Assembly: GCF_902652985.1 (NCBI RefSeq)
Contig: NC_047029.1
Coordinates: 34,658,001-34,722,000 of the forward strand
Length of the DNA stretch: 64,000 bases
Direction of reading: 5' to 3'
Source: Pecten maximus
Lineage: Eukaryota
Positions 19,391 through 52,300 of the stretch are shown piece after piece. Position numbers: made by a program. Every line of letters starts with the position of its first letter. Within the stretch, counting starts at the first letter, position 1.

Positions 19391-22300
19391 AAAAAACCGC
19401 CACGCCACAGAACACTCACTGGCGCGGATGTACTCGTACATGATATAATTAAATGGCACATTTTCCCTATAGATGCATCCCGATAATCACCAACTTACTA
19501 AATATATCTGATATAGGATACATAACTGAACACATCGACAGACAGTGAAATTCGAACAAAAAAATCGAAAGTCATAGATTTGGCGTAAAATCAATCGACT
19601 GATACCATGGAATAAATAATTCTATAAATAATGCCGTATGCACTTATGGTAACCTTTGTGAGAATGCCGTCTCCTTATAAATGAAAGTATATCCTTATCT
19701 AAAATTTTAACTTTTTAAATGTTGAATTCAACACTAGAAACAATCTTGTTTGGAAACCCGAATCTGGCCGAGTTCTCTAAGGTGAAGCCAAAACTGTTGT
19801 ATGCTAGTAACAGTAAAATTTAGAATCACATTTTGCTTTTGTTTGTATCAAAATAAATGAAAAAACATACTTGCAGGGACTCCCCTATTAGTTTTTTTTT
19901 TTTTTTTTTTTTTTTAATGAATTGTTCATTTGGATAGCAACGGGTACTTCAGGTATAAATCCCGTCCAGCAGGGATGGTCTAGTGTCACGTAACCCCGCA
20001 CGCTTATATCATCATTAAGATATTACACACAGTACAACTGCTCTATCCGGGTAGATCCAGTCTACAAACAAAACTCACGTGACAGCTAAAAGATAAAGGA
20101 AAAACAGAAAACATTTTTAACATGGAAAAACCTTTATCATTTTAGATCTGTACCTCGAGGATTTGTTTCTGTGCAACCTAAGCATTTCCATTGGACACAA
20201 CGATATGAGCCCATCCTTAAGTTCCCATCCCATCATGCTAGATTATAAACTGAATTTTATCTTTCCAGTAGTTAGATGAAGGGAGGATGGCTGCGTGGTG
20301 GTACCAAACTTTGTTGATATTTTTATTGGCGTGGAGTATAGGAACCTTCGGTAGGTGGTGTTTTCCTCAATGTAATGTAATGTATTCTTTATGATAATAA
20401 CCATACACTCAAAGTGGTACTGTCGATTTCGTGACGTAACATTAGAGGCCGTTGATATCATTGAAAATTATATCCACGTACATTGTATGCCAAAGCAGCG
20501 CATAATCGTGAATATTGACAGCAATTTTTCCAGAAATGGTTTAAACAAAATACATCTGTTATTTGTATCTTAGAAAACTTACGTGTGTATATACGATTAT
20601 GTCACGTGATGTACATTGAAGTGTATATGTTGTATTTATGGAGAAGAGTTCTTAAGTTGTAAGAACTTGTCTCTCACCTATTTGTCATTTTAAACAATAG
20701 AATATGTTTGGAGCAATCGACTGTAATGTTGTAGCTACATGTACTTTCTTTGATCTGATTTATTGTATATTGACGTGAGAGCGTTTACAGCGACTTCTAT
20801 TAATGTATGCCGGGGTTTATCCAGTGAGACTTTTCACAATCTAAAAATGGAAATAATTGGAGCTGAAGGATTTCACTGGGTATCCGAATTATTTTAATGT
20901 AAACCACACTAGTATTTGATATATGTAATCATTTAACCTTTTGATTACCTGATTGTCTAAACTGCACCTGTATATCTTTACCCATAATGCACCTGTATAT
21001 ATTTACCTATACTGTAGACTGGATTACCTGCCGTAGTTTTTCTACTCTCCGCTAGGCATCGAATTCGCTTCCAAAATATTCACGAGCGCAGCCTAGCGGA
21101 GAGAAATGGTACTAAGACAGGTAGTCCAGTCTACCTATACTGCACCTGTATATATTTACCCAAAAATTGACAACAGCCAATAAACGTTTCAGGAGATGAC
21201 CCATGTCATACACAACATATTCTACCGGATATGGACCATCGAGGTCTCAATTCTACCCTTGGTCATGGTAGTCATATCATCGATGACCACTACAATATCC
21301 CGTCTGGAGGACAATGGTTCCGCGTAGAATCACAACACATGCTGAACGATGTGTCACTCATTCACGAATTGAAGGCCTGTGGAACAGTGTTTCCCATCTA
21401 TTTGAAAGGTAGGTACAATTTCATGAGAGTAAAATCAAAATTTGCAAAATTGCAATATATGTATGATGTCTTGAAATGAACAGCGTCCGTATGACTGAGA
21501 GTACCTCTACATCCTGCATTCCCGGCTTTGCTGATTTACAGGATGTTTATCATACCATAATAACGATTACTTATAATGTTTAATTTATAGGAAAATATTG
21601 ACTTGGCTTCTTTTCAGTTGTAGTGCTTAGTAAAAGAGATGACGTTTTTGTTTCAATACAAACACAGCCATACACATATTTATCTTCATTACATAACTAA
21701 TTTAACTTTAAAACAACATACTTTTTCTCATTGTCAAACCATGACAGTATCATTGTCATAACCAACAGTTCATTCAACACGTTTTAAATTCACTGTTACG
21801 ACAAATTGAATTGTTGTTTCAGGAAGTTTACCTAGCACGAATGACGGCGTTGTCGACAGAGTTGCTTGCACGGTGGGCTTTGGCAGTCTATGTCAACACC
21901 CAATGACTATCCAGATAAAAAATTGTGGGGACTATTCAGTTTATTTCCTGGAACGACCAGCCAGTACATCGTCAGCATACTGCTTCTGTAAGTTTACAAA
22001 TTCATTCATGTAGTATTTTAATGGCGCTGATCCAAATCGCTAATAAAATGCATCGCACCCGCTTCCATGACGTAAGAATATTTATGAAGCGACTCTAGCT
22101 GATTATTATTTCAGAATACAAGGGCATAAGAGAACAACAGAGTGCTTAATTTGTATATAGGCCTGTTTCGTCGATAGGGACATCTCAATACGACTGTAGG
22201 AGTCTTGCTTGTCAGCATGACCAAAAACCTCAAACCCCACGATTATTGTCGTGTACCAGTTAGGGTAAAGTTTTTCGAGATGGTGGTGGGATTGACTATT

Positions 22301-49300: not shown

Positions 49301-52300
49301 ACGAATGTACTGGACATGGTCAGTGTAGTTACGGTAAGATTTGTTCATATTATTAACGGCTAATTAACACAGAAATGGTCATTAGGGTCGATAAATGGTG
49401 AGTAGTAAGGGTAGGTAACGTCTCCGTCATACTTGTATATATATACATGTAACATCTTAATATGTTGATATCTCCTAGATATACATAATATGTTACTTTG
49501 TTACATATATATACAGTAATATGTTCCCATGCTACAGATTATATTATAATGTTAACATTTAACATAATGCATTATAAAATATAATCTGTTGGTATATATT
49601 ATATATACTATGACGCCATGTTTACTTTATTACTAGTACTGCTGCACAATAGCTAATATAATAGGAGATTGGTGTGGTTATTTGAAGCATATATTTCAAG
49701 AATGTAAACAAAAAGTTATCCAATTCCATAAATATTCTGTAACACCTATGAATTCACCATAAAATATATTCAACAGGAATTTACCATCAATCTAGAGTTA
49801 GTATCACCATCGTCAAATATGAAACCAGGAAAAGAACTGAAAATATTGAAAATGTATTAAATACTTCTTGTTTGTTTGTAGGTACTTGTGTGTGCGATAC
49901 AAATTTCGGTGCTGCTGACTGCTCCATAGACATTCGTCAACCCCCTCGTATGTACGGTATTAACCTTGACACCAACGGTACATGCGATCTGAATACATGT
50001 CAGACGGCCATTGTGGAAGGAGAGACGTTCATCGATACCCTCAACCTTACCTGTCATAATACCTTATATCAGGTGAAATCTACATTTTGTTTTTAGTTCC
50101 GTTAGTTGCTTACACTTTACAAGTTTTATGTGTATTGCTACCTTTGCACGTAAAAACACTGGACAATAGAAAACGTATTAATATATTATGGATTAATCAA
50201 TAAAATAAGTATTTTCGTTCAAAAATGCTTTATCACGTGAAATCTTCTAAAAAAACAAACGCATACGCCGATTTCTCATAAAACAAATCCACCCAAGCAC
50301 GTGCAATTGTTTTGTAGGTCTTCATTTTATGGTCAATTTCTATTAGGTCAAATACAGAATATAACATTTATCATTAATCTAGCATCATTTACAACAAAGG
50401 TAATAATTTTGATGTATTGTTTTCAGTTTGACCCCAGAACATAAATCTTTCACCGTCCTGAAAACACTTTTCAAACATATGAATACGGCACGTCGTGCAC
50501 ACTAAGCTTGTCCTCAGGGACGTATCATCCTTTGAATGTCTTCACGTGTAGTATAGGGAATCCTTAATGTATGTTTAAATGTATTCTATTTTTAGATACA
50601 CAGGGATGGCACCGAAATGTTGATTATGAAGTGGAAATCACACGCCCAATTCAATACCCTTGTGGAGGTCTTCTGTCCATTTCCGAATGTACTGAGCGAT
50701 CCGGATAAGGACGGATTCGCCTACAGATGGTCAGTCACGGTCAGCAATGACGGTCACCACCCAGGACAGGTGTCGGACCTGATAGTCTATAACGGAATAT
50801 GCCAAAATGTCGTGCAAAATGAGAACACATCGTCAGTTCTGTTGGAAGTATGCATCATACCAGTGTTTCTGATATGCCTGTTATTCAATATTGTCTGTAA
50901 GAATCGTCTTCGAAATTTAGAAAATTACAAATGTGTGCTGCCAAGCATACACGGATTCTTATTGATCAAAACTTGACTAAATGTATTTCTAGTATAAAAA
51001 CAAAACAATGTATTCAAATAAATCATTGAAGACACAAGAGGCTCAGTATCACTTATCTTGATATTTTAGTGAATGTACATGTTTTACAAATACGTTTTGT
51101 ATTTTGGTTTTGCCTCCGAGTACCATACATTGCACTCAACATTTTTATTCAGCTAATATTCAATTTTGGTTCCAAACAATATAAAATGTAAATCAAGTTG
51201 GCTAACACTCAACACTCTACCTCGAGGTGGGGTTGTTCATGTTATCCCAGACTTAATTTGATACAAATCCTTTTATCCATACAGAAAAAAGGTTTTAAAA
51301 AAATCCTTTTTAATATTCATCAAGGGAGACCTTGTTGATACTTTGCTTCCTTCACCATGTAATCCTACAAACCGCATTGGATTGAAATCCACCGATCAGG
51401 TCGTTTAGAAGACAAAATTCTTCCTATTGCCTTCGCTATAACTATAACTTGTTTTTAAAGTGTCAATGTTCACTTTGATTTTATAAACCTACAATATTTC
51501 AATATTGTTTCCATTTTAATGAACACGATATCTAATTTGACTGTTATTCTCATATGATCCCATTGGCGTCCGTGAATAACAGTTAATGCCTCATGAATTT
51601 TTCTGCTTTATATGTCGATGTTTCCTATTGTTTGAAAATTTTCCTTAATTTGGTTTGATTTTTTTTTATCTCTAACATCCCGTTATTGAAAGACATTTCG
51701 TATTTCTTTAAGGACAACTTTTGCTTCATCAATGGCTTCTGTGTACAAGAGGGAAATACCAAGTCATCGGATTCGTGCTGGATATGCCAGATAACTGACC
51801 AGGGGTCAATATTTCAATGGAGCAGAAATCCAGGTAATTATAATTAGTTTTGAATCCTGGTCAGGACAGTAAAATGTCGCCTTCGTCATGTCTTTATATC
51901 TCGAAGGAATTACTATCGTTACTGCGATTTCTTTTTCTTATCGAACTTCTTTTTAGATCCCTTTATACTGATTTGTTCTGTTATCTCCATAGGAATCGAC
52001 AACTGTGCCGACAAACAAACGAACACCTCTACATTGGTACAGATGAATGAAACACGTAAGTTTGTTTTAAAATATAAATCAACTTAAAGTCACGTTGATT
52101 GTTCAGAGGATTGATAACTTGCAGTCTTGGACTAATCTGAAATAGTCTTTAAAGCAATTCCTGTGCGAGTCTAAAGAACTCGAGATATCGTGAGTTTTAC
52201 AATGTATATAACTTGTTTTGCTCGAGTTATATCAATAATATCAATATTTAATTGAAAAATGAATGCATTACTTTCATCTTATTGCATGTTTTCCTTGTTA

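What the first reader, a model, noticed from the sequence alone, without database searches (positions are those of the whole stretch)
21193..52055. One giant VWDE-like protein built by in-frame triplication of a whole 15-exon, 827-aa module
Seen in sequence: a roughly 10.7-kb unit occurs three times. Its coding total is 2481 nt (divisible by 3), it starts and ends in phase 1, and exon 15 (...VNKT) splices in frame to exon 1 of the next copy (SLPPKFE...). No terminal exon, signal-peptide exon or second D8C lies between copies. Established knowledge: canonical VWDE has a single D8C followed by a single VWD. Inference: this is one gene of about 2600 aa with beads-on-a-string VWD-C8-EGF assemblies, rather than three paralogous genes. 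It would resemble the tandem D assemblies of mucins, zonadhesin and FCGBP but be independently derived. It is a candidate matrix, mucus or adhesion scaffold with copy-number variation.
[Added by the scan's program, not by the reader: the finding's places include an assembly gap (unread letters, written N; its length is only estimated) at 23517 to 23616. Whether the letters on both sides are continuous or in frame is not known: test that first.]
Basis: partly seen in the sequence, partly recalled or inferred. Interest (0 to 1): 0.65.

Follow-up and report, generated by a model that had tools for sequence, protein, structure and literature searches.

The report
Scallop VWDE-like gene with repeated modules
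A king-scallop gene for a secreted, mucin-like adhesion protein carries its 15-exon building block three times in a row, but only the middle copy is intact in this assembly, so the proposed 2600-residue giant protein is plausible but unproven.

Summary
The window is the Pecten maximus reference locus: NCBI protein P0001 ('VWDE-like') threads through it at 100% identity.

The repeat is real, with a unit of about 10.64-10.73 kb in three copies. Both exon 15 to exon 1 junctions (31170|31775, 41827|42432) are in frame.

The three copies are not equal:
- Copy 1 lacks E1 and E2, because the repeat runs into the N gap.
- Copy 1 also lacks E7-E9 and 16 nt of E10, and has frame-breaking indels in E6 and E13.
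- Copy 3 has a -1 frameshift in E7, and its back half is an older duplicate.

As assembled, no 2600-aa frame exists. The only annotated protein found (1259 aa) starts and ends at two of these lesions.

One signal exon and one D8C precede the array. Each exon 15 can also act as a terminal exon, with a stop three codons past its donor.

Relatives carry one module (Argopecten), two (Mizuhopecten) or three to four (distant relatives).

Verdict: one multi-module gene is well supported. Three working modules is unproven. The rivals are assembly errors and a haplotype-switch false duplication.

The parts
20287..20350 (+). Candidate signal-peptide exon (MAAWWYQTLLIFLLAWSIGTF), donor G|GTAGGT, leaves in phase 1
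   Evidence: (scan for ATG + hydrophobic stretch + phase-1 donor). It resembles the N-terminus of Argopecten P0004. No signal-peptide predictor was run.
21193..21408 (+). D8C exon a (DDPCHTQ...CGTVFPIYLK), phase 1 in and out.
   Evidence: tblastn of P0003 and P0004 gives 73-79% identity, and this is the only such site in the window.
21823..21987 (+). D8C exon b (...RPASTSSAYCF + T), donor T|GTAAGTTT, phase 1 out. Compatible with E1, not with E3.
   Evidence: Orthologues hit Pfam D8C_UMOD over this part, and the A2 profile hits GP2 and uromodulin structures.
23517..23616 (.). Assembly gap at the 5' edge of the repeat array. E1 and E2 of the first module should lie here or are lost.
   Evidence: the only N run; no repeat homology to the left; homology starts at 23629.
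23617..31170 (+). Copy 1, a partial and damaged module. E3 23735-23880, E4 24439-24649, E5 24995-25080, E6 26438-26503 (-4 nt), E10 remnant 26585-26721, E11 27626-27809, E12 28766-28956, E13 29578-29830 (+1 T at 29675, stop at 29689), E14 30468-30588, E15 31108-31170.
26580..26585 (+). Junction of the 1.56-kb deletion in copy 1. It removes the equivalent of 35690-37220: E7, E8, E9, and the acceptor plus 16 nt of E10. It sits at the 8-nt microhomology AGATATGG.
   Evidence: Six private 1-3-nt deletions cluster just upstream, at 26466-26558.
31171..31774 (+). Inter-module intron 1 (604 nt, GTAAGT...AG). In-frame stop TGA at 31179-31181 if it is read through. AATAAA at 31161 and ATTAAA at 31188.
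31775..41827 (+). Copy 2, the intact module. E1 31775-32034, E2 32349-32435, E3 32819-32964, E4 33540-33750, E5 34096-34181, E6 35538-35607, E7 35766-35954, E8 36150-36358, E9 36486-36744, E10 37205-37357, E11 38290-38473, E12 39430-39620, E13 40220-40471, E14 41108-41228, E15 41765-41827.
   Evidence: P0001 threads at 100%; all AG/GT, no stops, 2481 nt. Pfam: Ig_VWDE (E1-E2), VWD (E5-E8), C8-like (E10), EGF (E11-E12).
41828..42431 (+). Inter-module intron 2 (604 nt; 600 of 604 positions identical to intron 1). Read-through stop at 41836-41838.
42432..52055 (+). Copy 3. E1 42432-42691, E2 43006-43092, E3 43550-43695, E4 44271-44481, E5 44827-44912, E6 46270-46339, E7 46513-46700 (-1 nt near 46537, stop at 46603), E8 46896-47092 (-12 nt, in frame), E9 47317-47575, E10 48100-48252, E11 49150-49333, E12 49882-50072, E13 50596-50847, E14 51713-51833, E15 51993-52055.
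47115..47214 (+). Boundary in intron 8 of copy 3 between the young (about 97% identical) and old (introns about 71% identical) parts of the array.
   Evidence: E9 dS 0.29 against 0.04 for E1-E8.
52056..52087 (+). Read-through tail of copy 3's E15 (RKFVLKYKST, stop at 52085-52087). This is the likely end of the coding region. The GTAAGT donor is still present at 52056.
52369..52374 (+). AATAAA hexamer about 280 nt after the copy-3 stop; candidate poly(A) signal.
   Evidence: motif only.

Best explanation
This is one Pecten maximus gene for a secreted VWDE-like extracellular protein. A signal peptide and a single uromodulin-type D8C domain are followed by a tandem array of 15-exon modules. Each module encodes Ig_VWDE, a beta domain, VWD, a helical C8-like region, one teneurin-type EGF and a C-terminal beta sandwich, so each is a D-assembly-like bead.

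Modules are joined in frame because E15 carries a consensus donor (T|GTAAGT) three codons before its own stop. That donor has the same phase and the same leftover T as the donor of the last D8C exon, which is the natural partner of the E1 acceptor.

The array most likely had two modules, an old duplication. It gained a third by an unequal crossover inside the front half, because copy 2's front is a mosaic of copy-3-like and copy-1-like sequence.

In this CLR-based assembly the 5' edge of the array is unresolved (gap), and only copy 2 is intact. So neither the number of working modules nor a 2600-aa product is established.

Shown: the anatomy, the phases, the lesions, the mosaic and the relatives. 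Inferred: use of the splice junctions, the crossover, secretion, and a matrix/mucus/adhesion role.
For: - P0001 threads at 100% identity and holds both junctions.
- Phases and splice sites fit.
- There is a single 5' end.
- Mizuhopecten P0003 is signal + D8C + two modules. Distant relatives P0006, P0007 and P0009 have three to four module-length matches.
- Domains: Pfam D8C_UMOD, Ig_VWDE and VWD on P0001, P0003 and P0004. The A2 profile hits FCGBP, VWF, MUC5B, MUC5AC and MUC2 (VWD), GP2 and uromodulin (D8C), and teneurin (EGF). The fold model has pLDDT 76.9 and matches D3 assemblies with TM (target) 0.53-0.56.
- dN/dS is 0.28-0.41, with Fisher p 0.015, 0.005 and 0.002.
- Mosaic: copy 1 odd vs copy 3 odd is 27:11 in the 5' bins and 4:15 in the 3' bins, p = 0.0006.
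Against: - As assembled, the frame is broken in copy 1 (E6 -4, 1.56-kb deletion, E13 +1; net -676 nt) and in copy 3 (E7 -1).
- Indel density in exons is not lower than in introns.
- No P. maximus protein containing the D8C exons or copy 3's back half was found among proteins up to 2000 aa.
- No transcript evidence could be examined.
- The copy 1 vs copy 2 back halves should be the youngest duplicates, yet they differ more (3.6% in introns) than the fronts do (1.3-2.0%). Their divergence is in the range of the genome's 1.71% heterozygosity (PMC7191990).
- All P. maximus back halves resemble Mizuhopecten module 2, and none resembles module 1. The simple two-module ancestry does not explain this.
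Confidence: 0.6

Rival explanations
1. False duplication. The real gene has two modules, as in Mizuhopecten. The assembler switched haplotypes inside the nearly identical front halves, so copy 1 plus part of copy 2 is the other allele laid in tandem. That other allele carries a 1.56-kb deletion.
For: - The gap abuts the repeat.
- Copy 1's private indels are 11 deletions out of 12 events. Nine of the 12 cluster at the gap edge (23638-23659) and just before the deletion junction (26466-26558).
- Copy-to-copy substitution divergence of 1.3-3.6% is close to the 1.71% heterozygosity. The assembly is wtdbg2 on PacBio CLR (PMC7191990).
- The mosaic in copy 2 is what a switch would give.
- False duplications are a known assembly error (PMC9516828; listing and abstract only).
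Against: - All three copies lie on one gap-free stretch, 23617-64000.
- The same mosaic is expected from a real unequal crossover.
- The assembly (918 Mb) is smaller than the estimated genome (1.15 Gb), so widespread haplotig excess is unlikely.
- Three- and four-module relatives exist.
Confidence: 0.3
2. Real triplication, but decayed. Copy 1 is a dead partial module, and copy 3's E7 frameshift is real. The locus would then be a pseudogene, or would make only short products ending at an E15 stop or at a premature stop.
For: - The lesions.
- The deletion junction sits at an 8-nt microhomology, as real deletions often do.
- Indels are as dense in exons as in introns.
- NCBI's protein is truncated at the lesions.
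Against: - dN/dS is 0.28-0.41 between copies.
- All 40 retained exons keep AG/GT, and 38 of 40 have no in-phase stop.
- The two isolated frameshifts are single-base length changes (T to TT, AA to A), of the kind CLR assemblies leave. Multi-copy sequence is hard to polish with short reads.
Confidence: 0.2
3. The array is larger than assembled. The gap hides at least E1-E2, and possibly one or more whole modules, including a module-1-type unit like that of Mizuhopecten and Ylistrum.
For: - Homology to the repeat runs straight into the gap.
- No module-1-type back half is visible. In E12 all copies are 81-83% identical to Mizuhopecten M2 against 67-68% to M1.
- The high-identity part spans about 2.35 units.
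Against: There is no direct evidence. The missing piece could be as small as about 1 kb.
Confidence: 0.2
4. Three separate paralogous genes, one per unit.
For: Each E15 has an in-frame stop three codons past its donor, with AATAAA or ATTAAA nearby.
Against: - No signal-peptide, start or D8C exon lies between the units.
- E1 begins in phase 1, with an AG acceptor only 604 nt after E15.
- Annotated models in three scallop species join the modules.
Confidence: 0.03

Closest known systems
Annotated scallop 'VWDE-like' proteins: P. maximus P0001 (1259 aa), Mizuhopecten yessoensis LOC110466572 isoform X3 (P0003, 1885 aa), Ylistrum balloti (P0002, low quality), Argopecten irradians isoform X2 (P0004, 997 aa)
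   Same: This is the same gene family, and for P0001 the same locus (100% identity). The module and the in-frame module-to-module junction are the same. Mizuhopecten has two modules behind one D8C.
   Different: The window shows three copies, more than any of these records. P0001 covers only part of it and is cut at two frameshifts. Argopecten X2 has one module and ends in the read-through homologue of the E15 tail (...GKCKF...).
Tandem D assemblies of gel-forming mucins, VWF, FCGBP and zonadhesin
   Same: VWD followed by a helical C8-like region, repeated along one secreted polypeptide. Sequence-profile hits to FCGBP, VWF, MUC5B, MUC5AC and MUC2 have E 4e-28 to 3e-12. Fold matches to D3 assemblies have TM (target) 0.53-0.56.
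   Different: No TIL or E module was detected; an EGF sits in that position. Each bead also contains an Ig_VWDE domain, a further beta domain and a C-terminal beta sandwich. A D8C precedes the array. The repeats are 95-97% identical in DNA and therefore recent. Multimerisation and GDPH-type cleavage were not tested; the motif here reads CDPH.
[quoted passage not shown]
   Same: The same Pfam families appear in the same order: D8C_UMOD, Ig_VWDE, VWD, EGF.
   Different: There is one EGF per module rather than a C-terminal EGF array, and the module is repeated. The vertebrate architecture is recalled from memory and was not tested here.
Distant multi-module relatives P0006 (3003 aa), P0007 (3038 aa), P0009 (3858 aa)
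   Same: Three to four module-length matches lie on one predicted protein, and P0006 has a single D8C at the front.
   Different: They are only 28-31% identical, their organisms are unknown (the library carries no names), and they are predicted models.

Membership tests
VWDE-like proteins (Pfam architecture D8C_UMOD - Ig_VWDE - VWD - EGF) | N-terminal signal peptide | tested here: inconclusive
   A candidate exon at 20287-20350 has a Met, a hydrophobic core and a phase-1 donor, and is similar to the Argopecten N-terminus. No signal-peptide predictor was run.
VWDE-like proteins (Pfam architecture D8C_UMOD - Ig_VWDE - VWD - EGF) | D8C domain | tested here: met
   The window exons at 21193-21408 and 21823-21987 are 63-79% identical to the D8C part of P0003 and P0004. 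Those proteins pass the D8C_UMOD cut-off (27.2 and 37.2 bits against 27). The A2 profile hits GP2 and uromodulin (E 6e-23 to 1e-20). The first exon alone gave no Pfam hit.
VWDE-like proteins (Pfam architecture D8C_UMOD - Ig_VWDE - VWD - EGF) | Ig_VWDE domain (PF25776) | tested here: met
   P0001, which is identical to the window's exons, scores 32.5 bits against a cut-off of 28.1. E1 alone scores only E 0.15.
VWDE-like proteins (Pfam architecture D8C_UMOD - Ig_VWDE - VWD - EGF) | VWD domain (PF00094) | tested here: met
   P0001 scores 60 bits over the full profile, positions 1-156. E8 alone scores 26.9 bits against a cut-off of 22.9.
VWDE-like proteins (Pfam architecture D8C_UMOD - Ig_VWDE - VWD - EGF) | EGF domain(s) after the VWD | tested here: met
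   There is one EGF per module. EGF_Teneurin scores 21.4 bits on P0001, below the 24.3 cut-off, but the A2 profile hits teneurin EGF at E 1e-14. A C-terminal array of several EGFs, recalled for vertebrate VWDE, was not seen.
Mucin/VWF-type D assembly (VWD-C8-TIL-E) | VWD followed by C8 | tested here: inconclusive
   VWD is met. C8 on E10 scores only 14.7 bits against a cut-off of 23.7. The model shows a helical region at residues 674-768 of P0004. Whole D3 assemblies align over 339-357 columns with TM (target) 0.53-0.56.
Mucin/VWF-type D assembly (VWD-C8-TIL-E) | TIL and E modules | tested here: not met
   No TIL family appeared in Pfam scans of P0001, P0003 or P0004 at E <= 0.01. An EGF follows the C8-like region.
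Mucin/VWF-type D assembly (VWD-C8-TIL-E) | Disulfide-linked multimerisation / GDPH autocleavage | not testable with these tools
   The sequence reads CDPHMKTFDG at the start of the VWD.
Single multi-module gene (as opposed to separate paralogues) | One 5' end; modules joined by in-frame GT-AG introns | tested here: met
Single multi-module gene (as opposed to separate paralogues) | Continuous open reading frame through all modules | tested here: not met
   The gap lacks E1 and E2. Copy 1 has E6 -4, the 1.56-kb deletion and E13 +1. Copy 3 has E7 -1. Whether these are assembly errors is unknown.
Single multi-module gene (as opposed to separate paralogues) | Transcripts crossing the E15-E1 junctions | not testable with these tools
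   No RNA data were on hand. P0001 contains the junctions, but its evidence track could not be seen.

The most novel reading that the evidence does not exclude
Each module end is both a terminal exon and a splice donor. The GTAAGT donor lies three codons before a stop. In copies 1 and 2 an AATAAA sits inside the VNKT codons, 4 nt ahead of the donor. Competition between polyadenylation or read-through and splicing could therefore give a nested series of secreted isoforms with one, two or three D-assembly-like beads from one gene. Module number is also evolving fast by unequal crossover: one in the Argopecten isoform, two in Mizuhopecten, three in Pecten, possibly polymorphic. The Argopecten isoform X2, which ends in the homologous read-through tail (...GKCKF...), would be such a short form.
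Probability: 0.2. Interest if true: 0.5.

Novelty: new member of a known kind. Interest (0 to 1): 0.3.

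Why it matters
If the three modules are real and expressed, this is a very recent in-frame whole-module expansion of a D-assembly-like extracellular protein. 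The crossover point can still be read in the sequence, and there is a simple splice logic: a consensus donor just before the terminal stop, in the same phase as the D8C exon donor. That would make it a useful natural example of how beads-on-a-string matrix or mucus proteins grow, in a family that is large in bivalves and that responds to infection in oysters (passages read in bioRxiv 10.64898/2026.05.15.723513 and PMC9679248).

In practice, it flags a reference-genome locus where the annotation is truncated. The gap, the indel clusters and a possible false duplication need checking before anyone counts VWDE-like genes or modules in scallops.

Tried and rejected
- a pattern search meant to find N runs was useless. 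The N run was found by script.
- **Exon-by-exon Pfam:** only 1 of 15 pieces passed a curated cut-off (VWD on E8). Four more gave weak relevant hits (Ig_VWDE, C8, EGF twice), 8 gave nothing, and 2 gave chance-level unrelated hits. Domain calls therefore rest on public whole proteins.
- **Word-indexed protein searches:** the searches with single exons reached only proteins up to 2000 aa, so a giant annotated model would have been missed. They returned 4 of 23, 3 of 6 and 2 of 26 candidates.
- **The listing of cluster members:** Accessions and isoform lists stayed unseen.
- **Origin of the inter-module intron:** there is only weak colinear similarity to the sequence downstream of copy 3's E15 (best E 1e-4), and none to the intron left of the gap.
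- **Shared donor 9-mer:** the D8C-b and E15 donors share TGTAAGTTT. I considered that this marks a duplication breakpoint and rejected the idea, because no further similarity follows it.
- **Literature:** searches for VWDE with scallop or bivalve found 3 and 6 papers, all incidental mentions. None describes this module array.
- **Not used:**
  - Genome contigs, because it holds bacteria and archaea only, so orthologous scallop loci could not be compared at DNA level.
  - Metagenome contigs and viral contigs, which are closed.
  - Complex prediction, because no binding claim is made.
  - The supplements of PMC7191990 (annotation tables), which could not be seen.

Full report
**What the window is**

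A single-exon query (E4 of copy 2) found four scallop proteins among 23 candidates. [quoted passage not shown] Threading P0001 through the window reproduces all 1259 residues at 100% identity on GT-AG exons between 29669 and 46602. The last 4-nt 'exon' in that output is an artefact of my threader; the model simply runs to 46602. So the window is the P. maximus reference locus. It is not vertebrate or human sequence.

An Alba-domain (RPP25-like) exon lies on the minus strand at 13942-14211, and a TERT C-terminal exon on the minus strand at 61655-61945.

Whole-protein analyses used public database records.

**The gap, tested first**

There is a single N run, 23517-23616.
- To its left lies the intron after the second D8C exon. 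Nothing between 17000 and 23516 resembles the repeat, by blastn or tblastn.
- To its right, homology to intron 2 of copies 2 and 3 begins at 23629, 12 nt after the gap.
- The gap therefore sits exactly at the 5' edge of the repeat array. Exons E1 and E2 of the first module (347 nt) are not in the assembled sequence.
- The D8C-b exon (21823-21987) leaves in phase 1 with a leftover T, which fits E1. E3 enters in phase 0. So the frame is not continuous across the gap as assembled.
- How much is hidden is unknown, from about 1 kb to whole modules.

**The repeat**

Three copies exist, with a period of 10.64-10.73 kb.

It has 15 exons, all AG/GT, with no in-phase stop, summing to 2481 nt (827 aa), phase 1 in and out.

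Both E15 to E1 junctions are consensus sites: T|GTAAGT ... AG|CT, giving Ser. The two 604-nt inter-module introns are identical at 600 of 604 positions.

**The other two copies are not equivalent**

*Copy 1*:
- It lacks E1 and E2.
- It has a 1.56-kb deletion that removes E7, E8, E9 and the acceptor plus 16 nt of E10. The junction sits at an 8-nt microhomology.
- E6 is 4 nt short.
- E13 has an extra T at 29675, with an in-phase stop at 29689.
- The lesions sum to -676 nt, so the frame is never restored.

*Copy 3*:
- It has a 1-nt deletion (AA to A) in E7, with a stop at 46603.
- It has an in-frame 12-nt deletion in E8.
- E9-E15 are intact but belong to an older duplicate. Introns there are about 71% identical to copies 1 and 2, and E9 has dS 0.29 against 0.04 for E1-E8.

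P0001 starts just after the copy-1 E13 frameshift and stops at the copy-3 E7 frameshift. So the annotation pipeline was cut by these lesions.

No other P. maximus protein with the D8C exon or with copy 3's back half was found (3 of 6 and 2 of 26 candidates passed). Those searches only reached proteins up to 2000 aa.

**Ends of the gene**

A candidate signal exon (20287-20350) and two D8C exons (21193-21408, 21823-21987) occur once, upstream of the array.

At the 3' end, copy 3's E15 reads through its still-present GTAAGT into RKFVLKYKST and a stop at 52085-52087, with an AATAAA at 52369.

In copies 1 and 2 the same read-through gives VNKTCKF and a stop. An AATAAA lies inside the VNKT codons, and an ATTAAA lies 18 nt after the donor.

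The Argopecten protein ends ...GKCKFMITC..., which is the homologous read-through. The module junction works because this donor has the same phase and the same leftover base as the D8C-b donor that normally serves E1.

**What a module is**

- Pfam on the public proteins gives D8C_UMOD, Ig_VWDE, VWD and a teneurin-type EGF.
- A profile of 26 relatives (26 of the 153 proteins held) hits solved structures by sequence: FCGBP, VWF, MUC5B, MUC5AC and MUC2 through the VWD; GP2 and uromodulin through the D8C; teneurin and reelin through the EGF.
- An AlphaFold model of the single-module Argopecten protein has mean pLDDT 76.9 and pTM 0.51. It shows beta domains, a VWD sandwich, a helical C8-like region, an EGF and a C-terminal beta sandwich.
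- Its best PDB fold matches are mucin and VWF D assemblies, with TM normalised to target of 0.53-0.56 over 339-357 columns for D3 assemblies.
- No TIL domain was found.
- So each module works like a D-assembly bead without being a canonical VWD-C8-TIL-E unit.

**Is the coding sequence under selection, and are the lesions real?**

| Comparison | dN/dS | Fisher p (syn vs nonsyn) |
|---|---|---|
| Copy 2 vs copy 3, E1-E8 | 0.31 | 0.015 |
| Copy 1 vs copy 2, back half | 0.28 | 0.005 |
| Copy 2 vs copy 3, back half | 0.39 | 0.002 |

Against that, exon and intron mismatch rates differ significantly only for the copy 1 vs copy 2 back half (1.8% against 3.6%, p = 0.003). Indel density in exons is not lower than in introns.

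Copy 1's private indels in the front half are 11 deletions out of 12 events. Nine of the 12 cluster within 45 nt of the gap or within 115 nt upstream of the deletion junction. That looks like degraded consensus at a contig end and at a structural conflict.

The assembly used PacBio Sequel CLR reads with wtdbg2, Arrow and freebayes polishing, and Scaff10X and Hi-C scaffolding. Heterozygosity is 1.71% (PMC7191990, passages read). Residual indels and mis-polishing in 95-97% identical copies are therefore plausible, but not shown.

**History**

Along the shared front segment, copy 2 matches copy 3 in the 5' part (copy 1 odd vs copy 3 odd, 27:11). It matches copy 1 in the 3' part (4:15; Fisher p = 0.0006). 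That is the footprint of an unequal crossover between the fronts of a two-module gene, giving three modules. An assembler switching haplotypes at the same place would leave the same footprint.

The two 'youngest' segments, the back halves of copies 1 and 2, differ more than the fronts do. This fits an inter-homologue event or an allelic artefact.

Unexplained: in E10, E12 and E13 every P. maximus copy is closer to Mizuhopecten module 2 than to module 1 (for example E12 81-83% against 67-68%), whereas E1, E2 and E6 lean slightly towards module 1. No module-1-type back half is visible. It may be lost, replaced or hidden in the gap.

**Relatives**

- Mizuhopecten P0003 (1885 aa) is signal + D8C + two modules. 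Ylistrum P0002 has about 1.4 modules and is a low-quality model. Argopecten P0004 has one.
- An exhaustive search with P0004 found 1700 representatives at E <= 0.001, and 245 at E <= 1e-30.
- Most of the 150 listed are about 950-1100 aa with one matched stretch.
- I scanned 12 proteins: 9 long or close unnamed ones plus the 3 scallop records.
  - P0006 has three module-length matches behind one D8C.
  - P0007 has two full-length matches plus partial ones at both ends, so at least three modules.
  - P0009 has four matches.
  - P0024 has several partial matches.
  - P0114 has two matches, and P0113 has three partial matches.
  - P0005, P0042 and P0058 each have one match.
- Multi-module forms therefore recur in this family.

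**Literature**

Searches for VWDE with scallop or bivalve returned 3 and 6 papers, all incidental mentions. In two I read the passages: VWDE family members are among the matrix and adhesion genes that change in oyster tissues on infection. I found nothing in the searchable library on this module array. Supplements were closed.

**Verdict**

- One secreted VWDE-like gene with in-frame tandem modules is well supported.
- 'Three complete modules, about 2600 aa' is not shown by this sequence.
- The rivals remain open: a false duplication (about 0.3), real decay (about 0.2) and a larger hidden array (about 0.2). They are separable only with reads and transcripts.

It is a new member of a known kind (tandemly repeated D-assembly-like extracellular proteins). 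It is already partly annotated and of modest interest.

Noticed in passing
window 3074-6707: Very long minisatellite: a 19-bp unit (CAGTATAAGGACTAAGATA) repeated about 191 times at 93% match.
   Followed up: no
window 9712-11413 and 12406-12967: Two further tandem arrays: a 28-bp unit repeated about 60 times (TRF lists the whole array as 30 copies of a 56-bp double unit), and a 40-bp unit repeated about 14 times. The strong negative GC skew at 10-12 kb coincides with the first.
   Followed up: no
window 54024-55544: A 155-bp satellite, 9.9 copies at 91% match, about 2 kb downstream of the gene's likely end.
   Followed up: no
window 13942-14211 (-) and 16114-16410 (-): An Alba-domain exon (Pfam Alba, 29.9 bits; RPP25-like) on the minus strand. 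A second minus-strand ORF at 16.1-16.4 kb looked like the N-terminal part of such a protein by eye but gave no Pfam hit.
   Followed up: partly
   Followed up: partly
window 25179-25842, 34280-34942, 45011-45674: Inside intron 5 of every copy lies a set of internal direct repeats of about 160 bp, roughly 68% identical to each other. This may be an old tandem or a mobile-element remnant.
   Followed up: no
window 21987-21995 and 31170-31178 / 41827-41835: The donor of the last D8C exon and the donor inside E15 share the 9-mer TGTAAGTTT. Both read through as Cys-Lys-Phe. No further similarity follows, so it is probably coincidence with the consensus donor.
   Followed up: partly
P0004 (Argopecten irradians isoform X2), C-terminus: This protein ends in ...GKCKFMITCILFWYLLKKDE, the homologue of the P. 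maximus E15 read-through. The tail is a predicted helix (residues 978-993, low confidence). It may be an intron-retention isoform rather than the gene's true end, which would mean Argopecten too could have more than one module.
   Followed up: no
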